The notes beneath the pieces were generated by a model. It was not told the DNA's origin. It saw nothing but the letters and a program-made list of their open reading frames with translations, and searched no databases. Shown here in pieces: positions 35,664-47,344 of a stretch of 64,000 nt of DNA. A program made the translations under genes and the position numbers. Every line of letters begins with the position of its first letter. Positions within the stretch are counted from its first letter, which is position 1. Source of the stretch: a virus; IMG/VR virus record IMGVR_UViG_3300012924_000001, positions 14,335-78,334 of that record. The stretch is one strand, 5' to 3'.

Positions 35664-36080
35664 TTATTTAACAGTGACATTTTTTATCATACGCAATTCA
35701 TCTTCTTCTATTACGAAGGAATCACCTATAACTCGCGATATCATATCTATCAATAATCCCCAATTTTTTCCATCACTAATAACGGAAACACCTTTCCTTA
35801 CATAAGGTGGAAATATTTTATTGATATGGGTCTCTCCATTATCAAAATCAATTCTCTTTGCAAAGAAAAAGACCATATCTTCAGGTGCATTTTTTTGGAG
35901 CGGGTCTGCTATTTTAATCAATAATTCCTGTGGAGTGATATTCTCATCGATCCTTCCTTCGATTTTTATTATTTCAAATTTCCCTATTACTTTAAACTGT
36001 TCAAAAACGTCCGCAGCCTGCATCAAAGATGTCATTTTTTTATGCTTAAAAATACAAGAAGCAATTAAAGTGAACTTCAT
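35664..36080 (-). CDS. Hypothetical protein
   Basis: Last gene of the minus-strand operon. Confidence 0.55.
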   Translation of the reverse strand: MKFTLIASCIFKHKKMTSLMQAADVFEQFKVIGKFEIIKIEGRIDENITPQELLIKIADPLQKNAPEDMVFFFAKRIDFDNGETHINKIFPPYVRKGVSVISDGKNWGLLIDMISRVIGDSFVIEEDELRMIKNVTVK

Positions 36081-36081
36081 A

Positions 36082-36807
36082 TTAACGTTCTTTTATTCCC
36101 GGATAAAGATCTGTTACAAAATCGGATTGCCAGTATTCATGAGTATCCACGTCCATAATGGTAAGTTTACCATCCCATCCAGCCCCTGTATCTAAGTTCC
36201 ATACGCCACCAGCATATAGTGGTTTCGCCTCTTTATTATTCCCGTTGTTAACGGCAGTGTGTCCGATAAATATTTCAGAGAAATCATCAACAGTTTTAAG
36301 CTTGTTATTTTCACCTTTAACGCTTTGTGCTTTCTCCCAAAGGGATCTGTCCCAATAGTATATGTCTTCTGGTTGTCCTATAAATTGTATTTCCCTGTTG
36401 AAGCCTCCATGTACAAAGCATCTTCTTTTGTCATCTATATAGAACAATCTTTGTTTTTTAAAGAACATGCGATGTGACTTAGGGAAGCAATCTGGATTAC
36501 ATATTCCGTTTTCTTCAGAATATGACTTTAATGTTCCTAATCCTCCCTGTCTCCAAAAATCAGGATGAAAATATGTTTCAAAGAATGCCCTAAGCCATTC
36601 ATCGTGATTACCTCTTATAGCTATAAGGTTCTCTATTTTTAAAAGCTCATCTACACATTGTCTTACTTCTGCCCATCCATCCGCAATATCACCTAATGGA
36701 ATAAGTGTATCATTTTGATAGTCAAACGCGCATCTTTCAAGACACTGCATAAGCGCTTTGTAGGCTCCATGTATATCACCTATTGCAAGTGTGCGGCCTT
36801 TCTTCAT
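36082..36807 (-). CDS. Calcineurin-like metallophosphoesterase (lambda NinI-like Ser/Thr phosphatase)
   Basis: GDIHG, GDIADG, RGNHD, HGG, GHT, LDTG motifs. Confidence 0.92.
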   Translation of the reverse strand: MKKGRTLAIGDIHGAYKALMQCLERCAFDYQNDTLIPLGDIADGWAEVRQCVDELLKIENLIAIRGNHDEWLRAFFETYFHPDFWRQGGLGTLKSYSEENGICNPDCFPKSHRMFFKKQRLFYIDDKRRCFVHGGFNREIQFIGQPEDIYYWDRSLWEKAQSVKGENNKLKTVDDFSEIFIGHTAVNNGNNKEAKPLYAGGVWNLDTGAGWDGKLTIMDVDTHEYWQSDFVTDLYPGIKER

Positions 36808-36811
36808 TCAT

Positions 36812-37267
36812 TTATTGTTTTAACAGTAATGTTATAGCAGAGGGATTATAGTCCCATTTGTTTAATGGATTATAGTTCCATTCGTTTAAGATTTTTAATC
36901 TCCTTACCCATATGGGTATCGCCGGGTTAAACTGTATTTTACATATTGTCTTCCATCCGCGTGGTATTTCAGGCACTAGATTACCAAATTGTGTGAAGCA
37001 GTATAATATTTTTACTGAAAGAGCGCAAGGGTCAGATAATAACTGCATTTTGTCTTGTTCTATTAAGGACGCAAACGAACACCCTGTTGGGATACTTTCA
37101 TAGGCATAATCAATAAAGAACCATCCTTCATTATATCTTGACATAAGCGCATCCACAATATCCTCTTTATTGAGCCTTCCCCATTTAAAGTGACCAGTTG
37201 CCAATAACGCAGGGAATACATGACCTTGTAATGTTAACGGATAGTATACGGCATCTTCATTTTGCAT
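36812..37267 (-). CDS. Hypothetical protein
   Basis: In operon, overlapping the upstream gene. Confidence 0.55.
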   Translation of the reverse strand: MQNEDAVYYPLTLQGHVFPALLATGHFKWGRLNKEDIVDALMSRYNEGWFFIDYAYESIPTGCSFASLIEQDKMQLLSDPCALSVKILYCFTQFGNLVPEIPRGWKTICKIQFNPAIPIWVRRLKILNEWNYNPLNKWDYNPSAITLLLKQ

Positions 37268-37841
37268 ATGGTAAAATCATTTGATGTAAGCGGCCTTCCT
37301 TGTGAAAGCTTGTGATGGCTCCCATAAAGGCTTCCCGGTACAAATTAAAGGCTGTGATTGCCGGAATAGCCTCTTTATTGTTTTTAATATCGCACAGTTC
37401 TGGAGGGCTAATTACATGATAAGACCTGCAAATTATGGGGCGTGCTTCATATATGGTACACTCATTGTCTTTAAGAAAGACACAGGCCGATACATCTGAG
37501 TGTAATAGCTTGTTAATAGAAAGTTTATTCTGACGTAACAAGTGGTTTTTATCTATGGCTATATTATGTTTTCTGCAATACTCAACAATGATTGCCACCT
37601 CCTCCGTGTAAGTTGGAATATCATGATGACAACAAAAGGAGCATCCTTTTTTGCAAGAATATTGAACCTTTGCGTTTGTGGATACCTCTTCATTAATATA
37701 ATCTACTTTTGTAATAGCCCAACGAAATGCCTGCAACTTGCCAACCATTTTAATGAGTTGACCATATTTTATTTTCCATTCAGCATACCAGTCTAATGAT
37801 TCAGGATTATTTGCTATCCAGGATAAGATTTCTTTTTTCAT
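37257..37841 (-). CDS. YkgJ-family Cys-cluster (Zn/Fe-chelating) protein
   Basis: CKKGCSFCC...CVFL....CTIYEARPIICR. Confidence 0.88.
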   Translation of the reverse strand: MKKEILSWIANNPESLDWYAEWKIKYGQLIKMVGKLQAFRWAITKVDYINEEVSTNAKVQYSCKKGCSFCCHHDIPTYTEEVAIIVEYCRKHNIAIDKNHLLRQNKLSINKLLHSDVSACVFLKDNECTIYEARPIICRSYHVISPPELCDIKNNKEAIPAITAFNLYREAFMGAITSFHKEGRLHQMILPYAK

Positions 37842-37871
37842 AATAATATTGGTTTAGATGAAAAAGAAAAG

Positions 37872-38443
37872 GGGAACATAGCCCACGTTGCCGGATATTG
37901 CTCTCGGGTATCTTCCGACCCTCCGGAGGTTGATTTGGCCTTACGCTTTTGGACAGCTGCCTCAGCCATGTGGACGCACCCGCTATCAGCCCTTTCGGTA
38001 TGTTCCCAAGAAAATTGGCCACCGTAGTTTTTCGGCATCTTTAGCTACTAGATGTTAGAATCTATCCGTTAGGACAAGCCCTGATTTTTGCGGCCAATAT
38101 AATAAAGTGAAGAACTTTTAAAGATTCCTGAGCGTGTCCCTTCGGCAGTAAGCGCCGGACATCCTGCAAACCCGCCCTGACTTCGACAGTGTGCCAGACC
38201 GGAATAAATGGTTAAGAGAAAGACTACTTCCGCGGGCCTCTCCCATATTATTCTAGCTTCCTGGTAGTAACCCCCGCCGTCCTTACATTTCAGGCTGCCA
38301 TTGGGATCATTAAATAAAGTTCCCGCATGATATACAGCTCTCAGGAATCCAATAAAATAAAGATCTTAAAGAAAACCCCCTCCGCACCTCATTTCTCTCA
38401 GCGCCGAGATATCCCCCATAAAGACGGATAGCGGAAGGGGTTT
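37872..38443 (-). ncRNA. Cluster of four tandem structured RNA domains, family not recognised
   Basis: Four separately closed 9-13 bp terminal helices with many internal helices; G-U pairs and a GAAA tetraloop favour the minus strand; U-rich linkers. Confidence 0.7.
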
Positions 38444-38476
38444 AGCAGGAATTGACGTTTAAAGATAAGAGATTAT

Positions 38477-38806
38477 TTATTTTGTACCAACCTTATTACG
38501 AAAAGTATTGTAATCAGCAGCAGAAAGAAATCCTTTTTTACATCCTCCATTTAATGTCTTTTGATATTGTACTATTCGGGGGCTGTTTTCTGGTAAAGGA
38601 GTCAAATCCGTGCGTAATTGATCAAGAACGCGCTGAAGTATCTTAGGAGGCACTTCTCCCTCTGCCAGGGTAGCAGTAGTGCAGGTTATGTGAAAGATAC
38701 AGGCCTTATTAAGAATAAACGCCTTCGCTGTGCTCAGTCCAGGAACTGAATCTATTTTTCTTGCCTTTACGTGGATACCATCTACAGAAAAATTTGAATT
38801 ACGCAT
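38477..38806 (-). CDS. Hypothetical protein
   Basis: 109-aa ORF with A-rich start context. Confidence 0.55.
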   Translation of the reverse strand: MRNSNFSVDGIHVKARKIDSVPGLSTAKAFILNKACIFHITCTTATLAEGEVPPKILQRVLDQLRTDLTPLPENSPRIVQYQKTLNGGCKKGFLSAADYNTFRNKVGTK

Positions 38807-38825
38807 AGTGATTGGGTTTAGTGAT

Positions 38826-39119
38826 TTAGTGCTTTAAAAGGTCAACCATATTGATTATTTCGGCTAACCCATATTGAAAGAAAAGAAAGTCTTTATAGGG
38901 ATTGGCCATTAGGGTGAAACGGACTTTTTTATCTGTCAATTCTTTTGCTATTGCTGCTTGTTCGGGAACTAAGTAAGTATATCTTTGGTTTTTCTCGGTG
39001 CCCCAAAGGATACAGGCCATTCCAGATGCCTTACATATTATTACCTTTCCTTCGAGTACTTGAGCGTAGTATTTGGAGGGTTTAGGAGACCGCAATTGGG
39101 AATCGGTATCTTGAGGCAT
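38826..39119 (-). CDS. Hypothetical protein
   Basis: 97-aa ORF. Confidence 0.55.
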   Translation of the reverse strand: MPQDTDSQLRSPKPSKYYAQVLEGKVIICKASGMACILWGTEKNQRYTYLVPEQAAIAKELTDKKVRFTLMANPYKDFLFFQYGLAEIINMVDLLKH

Positions 39120-39192
39120 TTTGCGCTTTTTCCGTAATTTAATAATATTATATTATAAAATAGGTTTTTTGGAGTGAAAAATTATGAATACC

Positions 39193-39432
39193 TTGGGCAT
39201 ACAATTAGGCATACAGAAAAACATCGTTTTGAAGATAGGCCACCATGGCTGTCAGGCAAGAAAGTAGCTAAAATTCCACGTTATGCACAATACTTCCACT
39301 CAGTTCCACGTTATCTGCTAAAAATGGCCACAATAAAGGGTTATATGGGAATGGGACAAAAAATAAAGTGCTGCAAAATGTATTATAATTGAAAGAAAAG
39401 AGTTAGTTTTAGGCATACAATTAGGCATACAA
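39193..39432. other. attP-like region with integrase arm-type and Xis-type repeats
   Basis: Paired TTRGGCATACAR repeats at 39193-39216 and 39409-39432; TTCCAC at 39274, 39294 and 39304; directly upstream of int. Confidence 0.7.
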
Positions 39433-39448
39433 ATAAACCTCTACAGAT

Positions 39449-40855
39449 ATGGCAGAAACTCCCACTCTCATTGTGATTAACAAGTATTACTCCGTTTCCT
39501 TTTATTGCGACGATCTCAAGCCGATGGACAACCGTTTACGCTACCCGACAGGAGTCAGGGCAACGGAGTCCATTTCGAAAGCGGGGCAGGAAAAAATAGA
39601 TCAAATAAAGGATGATATTATGGAATATGTCTCCACCAGGAGGAGGCGAAAAAAAACAGTTCTCAAGCTGGAGTTAAAGACATTCCTTGACGAACAAAGA
39701 GGTATTTTTCTTCCGCTACCTTCTGAATCAATCGTAGCTTCAGAAGCTGAATCAAACGTAGCTTTAGAGGCCATTAAGGATCTTGTGCAAGATCACAAGG
39801 ATATGATAGCCCAAATGCGGAAAGGGAATATCTTAAAAAAAGATGGCGGTGTCTATAGTCCCAATGCGTGTGATCAGTATGAGAGGATAAGAGCGCGTTG
39901 GCAAGACTGCGAGATAGCAACCAAAAACGCTGAAAATAAATTTACACTGTCCTATTTGATTACTATTGACGACTGTAAGGCCTTACAATTGTGGCTGACC
40001 CAGCAAAAGTATAGCAAAAACACCATATATGATACGCTCAATGTTCTCAAGATATACTTGAAGTGGTCTCACAAAGAAAAATATCATCAAAACGAAGTTT
40101 TTAAAGAGATGTGTGACAGAATGAGCTTTTCCCCAGAGGTTGCTGATGCCATTGCTCCTTCTTTTGATGAAGTTTATGCTTTATACACAAAGCATTTCGA
40201 TAATACAAATGAAGAGCGTGCCAGAGACTTTTTTATTTTGGGCTGTTTTTTAGGGTTACGTGTAAATGATCTGTATCGTATTAATGATTATTTGCTGCTC
40301 CTGCATTCTGATGGCTATTATTATTTTGATATCTTCACTCAAAAGGGGCAGAAGACAGTCTCTATTCCGGCCCACTATATAGCTCGTGAAATATATAATA
40401 AATACAGGGGCAATAAAAGTTTATGTGGGGATAATCAATTTGGGCCATTTGAACTATCAAGAATACCAAAACAATGGCGTAAATTATACAAGCCTGGATT
40501 ATTACCTGTATTCCATAAAAGCAATCTTGCTCAATATCTCCCTAAGATATGTAAAGAGACAATAAAAGGAAGCGCACTAATAACAATGACAAAAGGAGGT
40601 ATAAAGGAAGCGCATCATTATGAAAGATGTGATCTAATGACTCCCCATACGATGAGGCGATTTTTTGCGACTTATATGTACTGTGATATGCATTTGTCTG
40701 CTGCGGAGGTAATGGAGTTTACTGGACACAAAACAGAAGAGAGCTTTTTTAGGTATATAAAAATAGATCGCCAAAGAACAGTAAAGAAGGTTGCAAATAT
40801 GATAGCTTTTACGGGACCAGTCGAACTTTCTTCCAATCTTTCCGTGGTAGCGTAA
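39449..40855 (+). CDS. int: Tyrosine integrase
   Basis: GLRVND, HTMRR, GHKT...Y catalytic motifs; Bacteroidota-type N-terminal domains. Confidence 0.93.
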   Translation: MAETPTLIVINKYYSVSFYCDDLKPMDNRLRYPTGVRATESISKAGQEKIDQIKDDIMEYVSTRRRRKKTVLKLELKTFLDEQRGIFLPLPSESIVASEAESNVALEAIKDLVQDHKDMIAQMRKGNILKKDGGVYSPNACDQYERIRARWQDCEIATKNAENKFTLSYLITIDDCKALQLWLTQQKYSKNTIYDTLNVLKIYLKWSHKEKYHQNEVFKEMCDRMSFSPEVADAIAPSFDEVYALYTKHFDNTNEERARDFFILGCFLGLRVNDLYRINDYLLLLHSDGYYYFDIFTQKGQKTVSIPAHYIAREIYNKYRGNKSLCGDNQFGPFELSRIPKQWRKLYKPGLLPVFHKSNLAQYLPKICKETIKGSALITMTKGGIKEAHHYERCDLMTPHTMRRFFATYMYCDMHLSAAEVMEFTGHKTEESFFRYIKIDRQRTVKKVANMIAFTGPVELSSNLSVVA

Positions 40856-47250: not shown

Positions 47251-47344
47251 AATAAGATAAGTATGAGCTATGTCCAGGGGTCGAACCCGGATCTCCTCCT
47301 TCAGGAAGAATCTTGCCATTAGACCAACACAGCTACCATGAGAG

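What the first reader, a model, noticed from the sequence alone, without database searches (positions are those of the whole stretch)
37872..38443. Unrecognised ~570-nt cluster of four tandem structured RNA domains near attP
Seen (minus strand, 5' to 3'): domain C 38443-38373 closed by AAACCCCUUCCGC/GCGGAGGGGGUUU; domain B 38349-38123 closed by GAUUCCUGAG/CUCAGGAAUC; domain D 38098-38014 closed by AUUGGCCGC/GUGGCCAAU; domain A 38007-37872 closed by GGGAACAUA/UAUGUUCCC. Each is multibranched and visibly GC-richer than its surroundings, and they are separated by U-rich linkers. G-U pairs and tetraloops (CCGAAAGG, CUAACG) favour the minus strand, and a near-consensus promoter TATCTTTA lies at 38467-38460. 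I cannot match it to tRNA, tmRNA, RNase P, SRP or a riboswitch. Inference: either a new large phage ncRNA (size class of ROOL/GOLLD-type RNAs) or an operon of small RNAs, possibly expressed in the lysogen.
Basis: partly seen in the sequence, partly recalled or inferred. Interest (0 to 1): 0.85.

Follow-up and report, generated by a model that had tools for sequence, protein, structure and literature searches.

The report
Phage small-RNA array with new family
The 570-base gene-free stretch is not one giant RNA but a row of four separately folded modules, and the last one belongs to a previously uncatalogued, strongly conserved RNA family of soil phages that often sits among tRNA genes and in one phage is grafted into a tRNA body.

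Summary
All four closing stems are at the stated coordinates on the minus strand. The stretch is ORF-poor and GC-enriched. Four tandem stem-closed domains were reached by 0 of 300 shuffles and by no other 601-nt window tested.

The "single large RNA" reading fails. A sister phage in another soil metagenome joins 38451 directly to 38013, so it lacks C-B-D (437 nt) and keeps domain A.

Domain A (37872-38007, minus) is a real RNA family. I found 11 further copies in soil/metagenome phage contigs (66-161 bits). On 12 sequences 93.6% of cells pair, with compensatory changes in P1-P5 and a conserved GNRA loop. Rfam 15 has no match.

Context of the 11 other copies:
- five lie beside tRNA or tRNA-like genes;
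- in L037 the core replaces the anticodon/variable region of a tRNA body;
- neighbouring protein genes are unrelated;
- each of five virus records searched whole has one copy.

My best reading is a stand-alone, stable, trans-acting small RNA matured like a tRNA, not a leader of the ykgJ operon. Its function is unknown.

C, B and D have no detectable homologues and remain unverified. No RNA-seq run was available. This scan has already reported other unclassified structured RNAs in phage tRNA arrays on other DNA.

The parts
37872..38007 (-). Domain A: member of a new conserved phage RNA family (about 125-150 nt). P1 38007-37999 / 37880-37872. Lineage-specific GAAA hairpin 37998-37991. P2 37975-37970 / 37886-37881. 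P3 37957-37955 / 37947-37945 with loop GUCCAAA. P4 37925-37922 / 37895-37892. P5 37921-37906 with GNRA loop GGAA.
   Evidence: Model R1 gives 140.7 bits. Eleven further copies exist elsewhere. Covariation. No Rfam match.
37858..37871 (-). U-rich tail CUUUUCUUUUUCAU directly after P1 of domain A; the ykgJ-like ATG follows at 37841.
   Evidence: In one search and 75 outputs a U-run or canonical terminator follows P1 in 7 of 11 full-length copies, this window's included.
38014..38450 (-). C-B-D cassette, 437 nt: present here and absent from a sister phage. CAAU stands at both borders (4-nt microhomology).
   Evidence: one 57-kb contig of run X4 covers 38451-39172 and 37867-38013 with adjacent contig coordinates (4780/4781), 'skips 437', both=4. 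No homologue found.
38373..38443 (-). Domain C: 71-nt three-way junction closed by a 13-bp stem and followed by UUUUCUUU. It could also act as a terminator for the upstream ORF.
   Evidence: MFE -33.9 kcal/mol, z -4.1, against -24.8 on the plus strand. No homologues.
38123..38349 (-). Domain B: 227 nt closed by a 10-11-bp stem. Its inner fold is not supported.
   Evidence: The closing stem is in the centroid, but z is only -0.72. No Rfam hit at E<=10. No homologues.
38014..38098 (-). Domain D: 85-nt multibranch module closed by a 9-bp stem and followed by UUUUCUU.
   Evidence: z -2.26; the plus strand is similar at -2.17. Not called a tRNA by ARAGORN or Rfam.
38460..38467 (-). Similar ATCTTTA boxes recur before B (about 38364) and after B (about 38124).
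   Evidence: repeat D5. Not confirmed as a promoter.

Best explanation
The gap holds a tandem array of four independently folding, stem-closed RNA modules on the minus strand, not one large RNA.

The 3'-most module, A, is a single-copy gene for a new, highly conserved structured RNA of soil phages. Its fold has a closing helix P1, four further covarying helices, a GNRA tetraloop, and long joining strands that stay invariant in most copies.

I infer that A is released as a discrete, stable RNA of about 135 nt. Its 3' end would come from P1 plus a U-run or a terminator, or from the tRNA-processing enzymes where tRNAs flank it or enclose it. I infer further that it acts in trans on a conserved host or phage factor, possibly linked to tRNA or translation, and does not switch the downstream ykgJ operon.

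C-B-D is an accessory 437-nt cassette with the same grammar (stem-closed fold followed by a U-run). It was gained or lost between sister phages. It probably encodes further small RNAs, and C may double as the terminator of the upstream operon, but this part is unverified.

Shown here: the anatomy, the covariation, the distribution, the indel and the tRNA contexts. Inferred: transcription, processing, action in trans, and the target.
For: Family and fold:
- 12 sequences score 66-161 bits with R1.
- 93.6% of cells pair against 69.9% in shuffles; the covariation score is 0.539 against 0.136 (0/500 shuffles); slid controls give 31-45%.
- P2 covaries at 6 of 6 pairs with 100% pairing. P4 pair 108/139 reads GC5/UA5/CG1. 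P5b pairs read UA7/CG4 and CG6/AU3 and close a GNRA loop.

Separability: the sister phage lacks 38014-38450 and keeps A, with 8 differences in 147 nt. The model finds one copy in the window and one copy in each of five virus records searched whole.

Stand-alone RNA:
- L030: A lies between tRNA-Met and tRNA-Trp.
- L028: A has its own terminator, then tRNA-Asn follows.
- L035: a tRNA lies 40 nt downstream.
- L036: a tRNA-like gene lies 15 nt upstream.
- L037: the core sits inside a tRNA body with canonical acceptor, D and T arms.
- A U-run or terminator follows P1 in 7 of 11 full-length copies.
- The downstream protein genes are unrelated: terL, NinB, helicase-methylase, winged-helix, ykgJ.

Array grammar: 0 of 300 shuffles reach four domains. 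UUUUCUU follows C, D and A, and linker motifs repeat. L036 also has stem-closed modules flanking its A copy.
Against: There is no direct evidence of transcription, RNA ends or stability.

In L029, L033 and L039 an ORF starts 7-11 nt after P1, and in this window 30 nt after it. A cis role in translation or termination therefore stays possible. A P1 followed by a U-run could equally be a ligand-dependent terminator.

In this window A is not next to a tRNA; the nearest tRNA-like gene is 9 kb away.

C, B and D have no homologues. B is no more stable than shuffles, and D folds equally well on both strands.

The A4 alignment was fitted to the model, which favours the modelled pairs. The independent MAFFT alignment A2 gave the same answer for P2-P5.
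Confidence: 0.6

Rival explanations
1. Domain A is a cis-acting leader of the downstream genes. It would be either a riboswitch whose ligand-stabilised P1 plus U-run (or the adjacent terminator) stops transcription, or a put-like RNA that makes RNA polymerase read through terminators.
For: A always has the same orientation as what follows it. P1 is followed by a U-run or a canonical terminator in 7 of 11 full-length copies. ORFs start 7-30 nt after it in four loci. In L015 the segment AAGGUG of P2 can pair with the CACCUU 5' half of the terminator (read). The largely invariant joining strands resemble an aptamer core.
Against: The genes downstream are unrelated across loci. Two copies are followed by tRNA genes, and one is embedded in a tRNA body. 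No consistent antiterminator pairing is visible; L028 has none. In L039 the motif fills a 140-nt gap inside an operon with no terminator.
Confidence: 0.2
2. The whole 570 nt is one large multi-domain ncRNA of the ROOL/GOLLD class.
For: The four domains are contiguous, on one strand and GC-enriched, with one candidate promoter upstream. ROOL and GOLLD also occur in prophages near tRNAs (PMC5737381). An 8-nt perfect complement links C (CCGCUAUC) to the near-invariant GAUAGCGG of A (repeat I1).
Against: The sister phage has A without C-B-D. The 11 other copies of A carry no C/B/D-like sequence nearby. There are no ROOL, GOLLD or other Rfam hits. The whole region folds no better than shuffles.
Confidence: 0.04
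3. C-B-D is not a set of functional RNAs. It would be a strain-specific insertion, or the remnant of one (mobile or recombinational junk), whose hairpins at most act as terminators. Only A is a functional RNA.
For: The indel is exact and has a 4-nt microhomology. No homologue appears in GenBank phages, in 12 related loci, in the rest of the genome, or at 80% likeness or more in four soil runs that do hold several A relatives. B has z -0.7 and D shows no strand bias.
Against: Three tandem stem-closed domains are uncommon by chance: 1.7% of shuffles and 2.6% of real windows. GC is 0.44-0.50 in a 0.35 genome with no ORF. C has z -4.1 with a 9 kcal/mol strand bias. The modules share A's stem-plus-UUUUCUU grammar.
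Confidence: 0.3
4. Domain A is a self-cleaving or otherwise catalytic RNA that helps process phage tRNA or operon transcripts.
For: It is associated with tRNAs. It has a large conserved core with a GNRA loop and a multi-helix junction.
Against: It matches no known ribozyme model. About 135 nt is large for a self-cleaver. Embedding in a tRNA body (L037) fits a stable product better than a cleavage module. Half the copies have no tRNA nearby.
Confidence: 0.08

Closest known systems
Phage T4 RNA C and RNA D (species 1 and 2 stable RNAs of the T4 tRNA cluster). Named from my own knowledge; other reports of this scan name the same comparator.
   Same: Small, stable, non-tRNA RNAs of unknown function, encoded among phage tRNA genes and matured with them. 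This is the context of 5 of the 11 other A copies.
   Different: There is no sequence similarity: blastn of A against 50,697 GenBank phage records found nothing real. In this window A lies in a lysogeny/early region, not in a tRNA cluster. Processing is not shown.
GOLLD and ROOL RNAs
   Same: Phage or prophage location, often near tRNAs (PMC5737381). Ornate conserved folds of unknown function.
   Different: They are 580-800 nt single units. A is about 135 nt, and the four-domain block is not conserved as a unit. Their Rfam models do not hit.
tmRNA, and engineered 'tRNA scaffold' RNAs (from knowledge)
   Same: The L037 copy has a tRNA acceptor stem, D arm and T arm with a large structured insert in place of the anticodon region. 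This is the topology of tmRNA's tRNA-like domain and of laboratory tRNA scaffolds used to stabilise aptamers.
   Different: ARAGORN makes no tmRNA call and finds no tag reading frame. Acceptor pair 3:70 is U-A, not G-U. All other copies, including the one in this window, use a plain P1 helix.
Riboswitch aptamers with terminator platforms, and HK022 put RNAs (from knowledge)
   Same: A conserved multi-helix RNA with largely invariant junctions, directly upstream of U-runs, terminators and co-oriented genes.
   Different: There is no common downstream gene class. Some copies have tRNA neighbours and one has a tRNA host. Neither a ligand nor an effect on RNA polymerase has been tested.

Membership tests
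Any Rfam 15 family (including ROOL, GOLLD, tRNA, tmRNA, RNase P, SRP, 6S, riboswitches, ribozymes, group I/II introns) | Match to the family covariance model | tested here: not met
   0 hits at gathering score over the whole window. At E<=10 only chance snoRNA hits appear, over 37600-38700 and over domain B alone.
ROOL/GOLLD-type large ornate RNA | One conserved unit of several hundred nucleotides whose domains co-occur | tested here: not met
   The sister phage lacks C-B-D and keeps A. The other 11 A copies stand alone.
ROOL/GOLLD-type large ornate RNA | Phage or prophage context, often beside tRNAs | tested here: met
   All loci carry phage genes. tRNA or tRNA-like genes lie next to or around A in L028, L030, L035, L036 and L037. 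In the window itself no tRNA is adjacent.
New 'domain A' RNA family (defined here) | Full-length match to model R1, with P1-P5 and the conserved joining strands GAUAGCGGGUGC, CAUGGCU, CAACCUCC, AGAGCAAUAUC and GGCAAG | tested here: met
   The window copy scores 140.7 bits over model positions 1-134. Pairs are kept and covary.
Riboswitch / cis-regulatory leader | Consistently upstream of one functional class of genes | tested here: not met
   What lies downstream: ykgJ-like, NinB, winged-helix, terL, helicase-methylase, tRNA-Trp, a tRNA, and unknown small ORFs. No shared neighbour protein.
Riboswitch / cis-regulatory leader | Expression platform with mutually exclusive pairing, and ligand binding | tested here: inconclusive
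   Terminators or U-runs follow P1 in 7 of 11 full-length copies. An antiterminator pairing is visible only in L015. Ligand binding cannot be tested with these tools.
tRNA / tRNA-like | Cloverleaf with acceptor, D, anticodon and T arms | tested here: not met
   ARAGORN, also with introns allowed, and the Rfam tRNA model find nothing in window 36000-40000. Only homologue L037 has a tRNA body around the core.
T4 RNA C / RNA D | Sequence homology to the T4 genes | tested here: not met
   No real blastn match of A or of C-B-D in the GenBank phage collection.
T4 RNA C / RNA D | Stable RNA excised from a tRNA-cluster transcript | not testable with these tools
   No RNA run holds the stretch. The genomic context fits in 5 of the 11 other copies.

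The most novel reading that the evidence does not exclude
Domain A is a natural, phage-encoded functional RNA of a new biochemical class: an aptamer or sponge, or a ribozyme. Phages would stabilise it either with a plain helix or by grafting it into a tRNA scaffold. It would act on the host's tRNA/translation machinery or on a tRNA-targeting defence. On this reading the four-module block in this temperate phage is an 'RNA island' of such effectors, expressed next to the integrase.
Probability: 0.12. Interest if true: 0.85.

Novelty: new variant of a known kind. Interest (0 to 1): 0.62.

Why it matters
Highly conserved, multi-helix RNAs with long conserved joining strands have repeatedly turned out to be ligand sensors, ribozymes or macromolecule mimics.

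This family is absent from Rfam 15. It spans phage contigs of 32-51% GC and is single-copy in each virus record searched whole.

It comes in three natural 'packagings': a plain closing helix, flanking by tRNAs, and grafting into a tRNA body. That is the same trick engineers use to stabilise aptamers, and it points to a trans-acting product and gives a handle for expressing it.

It adds to a growing set of unexplained structured RNAs in phage tRNA regions. Other reports of this scan describe different such families, which suggests that phages carry a larger non-coding toolkit than annotation shows.

Tried and rejected
The Logan contig of the 51%-identical YkgJ homologue P0002 and the sister-phage contig could therefore not be fetched.

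**Searches through flanking proteins that led nowhere**
- The YkgJ-like protein, the 109-aa ORF and the integrase in IMG/VR gave no relatives.
- Alignment A1 in GTDB genomes gave only an unrelated archaeal hit.
- The phosphatase gave five jumbo-phage loci without the RNA.

**blastn searches**
- The whole stretch, A alone and C-B-D alone against GenBank phages gave only chance hits.
- An A copy (L033) against E. coli genomes, as a test for a mimic of a conserved host RNA, gave no match.

**Chance hits of the DNA patterns.** L013, L014, L016-L019, L022-L027, L031, L032 and L034 were read and discarded.

**Expression.** No RNA holder was listed for this stretch, so expression could not be examined.

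**Bacterial genomes.** A virus record has no 'relatives', and 'of' needs a genome handle, so bacterial genomes could not be surveyed with the model.

**Literature.** The supplements of the 10,006-csRNA paper (PMC10690425) are not held. I cannot say whether the motif is in that list.

**Rejected readings**
- The GAGG/CCUC helix that I first drew is not kept in L035, L038 and L039, so I dropped it.
- The RNAalifold pairing of GCUG with CCGGC fails where P4 covaries.
- Small ORFs across A (66 and 71 aa) are rejected as coding. Variation sits in paired columns, and homologues differ by 2-nt and 21-nt indels.
- Bacteroidota-type promoter pattern: 5 matches against 3.4 expected, none near the stretch.

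Full report
**Setting.** The window is part of a complete 78,334-bp IMG/VR virus record with direct terminal repeats. Its reads come from soil metagenomes. The stretch lies in a minus-strand gene row that starts next to a tyrosine integrase at 39449-40855(+) (PHROG integrase, E 7e-14). The order is: a 97-aa ORF, a 109-aa ORF (38477-38806), the 635-nt gap, a YkgJ-like CxxCxxCC protein (37257-37841), a 151-aa ORF, a NinI-like metallophosphatase and a 138-aa ORF. A cI-like HTH gene converges on this row.

**The observation.**
- The gap is GC-enriched, 0.46-0.505 against about 0.35, and has no ORF longer than 71 aa.
- A scan for perfect stems (at least 9 bp, at most one G-U, span 50-260 nt) finds four tandem closed domains on the minus strand and two on the plus strand.
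- None of 300 dinucleotide shuffles and none of 424 other 601-nt windows of this sequence reach four.
- Energy alone is not decisive. The whole stretch has z +0.56. C has z -4.1, D -2.3, B -0.7 and A -0.8. C is 9 kcal/mol more stable on the minus strand.
- Rfam 15 gives nothing at gathering score or at E<=10. ARAGORN finds nothing here.

**The stretch is not one unit.** I laid contigs of four soil runs on 36800-39200. A 57-kb contig of a related phage in run X4 shows 50 differences over 38451-39172 and 8 over 37867-38013. Position 38451 is joined directly to 38013, with adjacent contig coordinates 4780/4781. That phage therefore lacks 38014-38450, which runs exactly from 7 nt before C to the last base of D. 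CAAU stands at both borders. Its ykgJ region is replaced by 650 unlike letters. Short contigs of run X2, from another study, are identical to the C-B-D-bearing form. In the same call the core of A (37884-37972) matched several unrelated contigs at about 85% identity, whereas C, B and D matched nothing.

**Domain A is a family.** I used the blocks conserved in those matches as DNA patterns.
- IMG/VR and JGI metagenome scans returned true homologues L015 (=L021), L020 (cut by the contig end), L028, L029, L030 and L033.
- A second-half pattern returned L035-L039.
- A covariance model built from six of them scores all 12 sequences at 66-161 bits. It finds only one copy in the window and one copy in each of five virus records searched whole.

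On the plain MAFFT alignment of six sequences, my hand-drawn P2-P5 pair in 97.6% of cells, with nine compensatory pairs; slid controls give 25-54%. On the 12-sequence model alignment 93.6% of cells pair, and the covariation score is 0.539 against 0.136 in shuffles (0/500).
- P1 differs in sequence in most copies yet stays complementary.
- P2 covaries at all six pairs.
- P3 is a 3-bp stem, capped by GUCCAAA in most copies.
- The central pair of P4 reads GC5/UA5/CG1.
- P5 ends in a GNRA loop closed by pairs reading UA7/CG4 and CG6/AU3.

G-U pairs fix the sense strand. Joining strands such as GAUAGCGGGUGC, CAUGGCU, CAACCUCC, AGAGCAAUAUC and GGCAAG are invariant or nearly so across contigs of 32-51% GC. 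Indels of 2 and 21 nt, and variation confined to paired columns, exclude a coding reading.

**What the contexts say.**
- All loci are phage-like: NinB, HNH endonucleases, terminase, helicase-methylase, RecE-like exonuclease, TnpB, integrase.
- No protein family recurs next to the motif. Only L015, a distant temperate relative, shares an integrase and two small proteins with this phage. The YkgJ/phosphatase operon is therefore not a conserved partner.
- tRNAs do recur. In L030 the motif lies between tRNA-Met and tRNA-Trp. In L028 it has its own strong terminator and tRNA-Asn follows. In L035 a tRNA lies 40 nt downstream. In L036 a tRNA-like gene lies 15 nt upstream and is itself enclosed by a 12-bp stem.
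- In L037 the plain P1 is replaced by a tRNA body: acceptor GGUAUGG/CCAUACC, a D arm, a T arm with loop UUCGAAU and discriminator A, followed by CUUUUUU.
- P1 is followed by a U-run (window, L033, L036, L038, and L037 after the acceptor stem) or by a canonical terminator (L015, L028).
- In L029, L033 and L039 an ORF starts 7-11 nt after P1.

**Mechanism.** Only one reading fits every context: a discrete, stable RNA cut out of, or terminated from, phage transcripts. It is sometimes matured by the tRNA machinery and acts in trans. I give this about 0.6.
- A cis leader (riboswitch or put-like antiterminator) fits the U-runs and adjacent ORFs. It does not fit the tRNA neighbours, the tRNA-embedded copy or the unrelated downstream genes. 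I give it about 0.2.
- A catalytic role cannot be excluded.
- The target is unknown. A sequence-level mimic of a conserved E. coli RNA was not found.

**C, B and D.**
- They share A's grammar: a closing stem followed by UUUUCUU or UUUA. The linkers carry repeated ATCTTTA and CUUUAUUNUAUUGG pieces.
- nhmmer and blastn find no relatives in 12 related loci, the rest of the genome, GenBank phages or the four soil runs.
- They are not related to A.
- Three tandem closed domains are uncommon but not rare by chance, at about 2%.
- I therefore treat C-B-D as an accessory cassette that probably encodes further small RNAs. C is also placed to terminate the upstream ORFs. 'Insertion without function' remains a live rival at 0.3.

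**Comparison and novelty.** The family has no Rfam model and no GenBank phage homologue.
- By context its nearest analogues are the T4 tRNA-cluster stable RNAs C and D (from my own knowledge) and GOLLD/ROOL, which also sit in prophages near tRNAs (PMC5737381). It shares no sequence with them, and it is far smaller than GOLLD and ROOL.
- The L037 form has the topology of tmRNA's tRNA-like domain and of laboratory tRNA scaffolds.
- A 2023 catalogue of 10,006 candidate viral structured RNAs (PMC10690425) may or may not contain the motif; its tables are not held.
- Other reports of this scan describe different unclassified RNAs in phage tRNA arrays.

**Limits.**
- No RNA run was listed for the stretch.
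- Bacterial genomes could not be surveyed with the model.
- The promoter claim is untested.

Noticed in passing
window 38427-38434 and 37980-37987 (minus strand): Domain C carries 5'-CCGCUAUC-3', a perfect complement of the near-invariant GAUAGCGG strand of domain A (inverted repeat I1). By my rough estimate the chance expectation for one such match to a conserved strand is about 0.03-0.15. It could let C mask A.
   Followed up: partly
window 47265-47333 (-): A tRNA-shaped gene that ARAGORN calls tRNA-??? with a 2-nt 'anticodon'. The Rfam tRNA model gives 38.6 bits. It is the only tRNA-like gene of this phage and lies 9 kb from the RNA array.
   Followed up: partly
L037:3854-4020 (-), provirus record of 53,091 bp: A natural chimera: a canonical tRNA acceptor stem, D arm and T arm, with the ~100-nt domain-A core in place of the anticodon/variable region, followed by a U-run.
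   Followed up: yes
L036:13746-13860 and L036:14113-14227 (+): Two further stem-closed modules flank the A copy. One is a 97-nt tRNA-like gene enclosed by a 12-bp stem (z -2.8). The other is an AT-rich 115-nt module closed by 13 bp and followed by UUUU (z -3.4). The tandem layout resembles the one in this window.
   Followed up: partly
L035:5960-6032 (+): A tRNA by the Rfam model (45.6 bits) that ARAGORN does not call. By eye its anticodon loop has only 5 nt. A TnpB (OrfB_IS605/Cas12f-like) gene lies 420 nt upstream of the A copy.
   Followed up: no
window 36843 and 37269-37867: The sister phage of run X4 has a 24-nt deletion at 36843. It carries 650 unlike letters in place of the ykgJ-like gene. 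That may be the divergent allele seen as P0002, 51% identical at the protein level.
   Followed up: no
window 38094-38107 / 38349-38362 and 38114-38125 / 38455-38466: Linker repeats. CUUUAUUNUAUUGG precedes both B and D. AUCUUUAAANGU occurs at the candidate promoter and again after B. This suggests the modules were assembled from cassettes with shared flanks.
   Followed up: no
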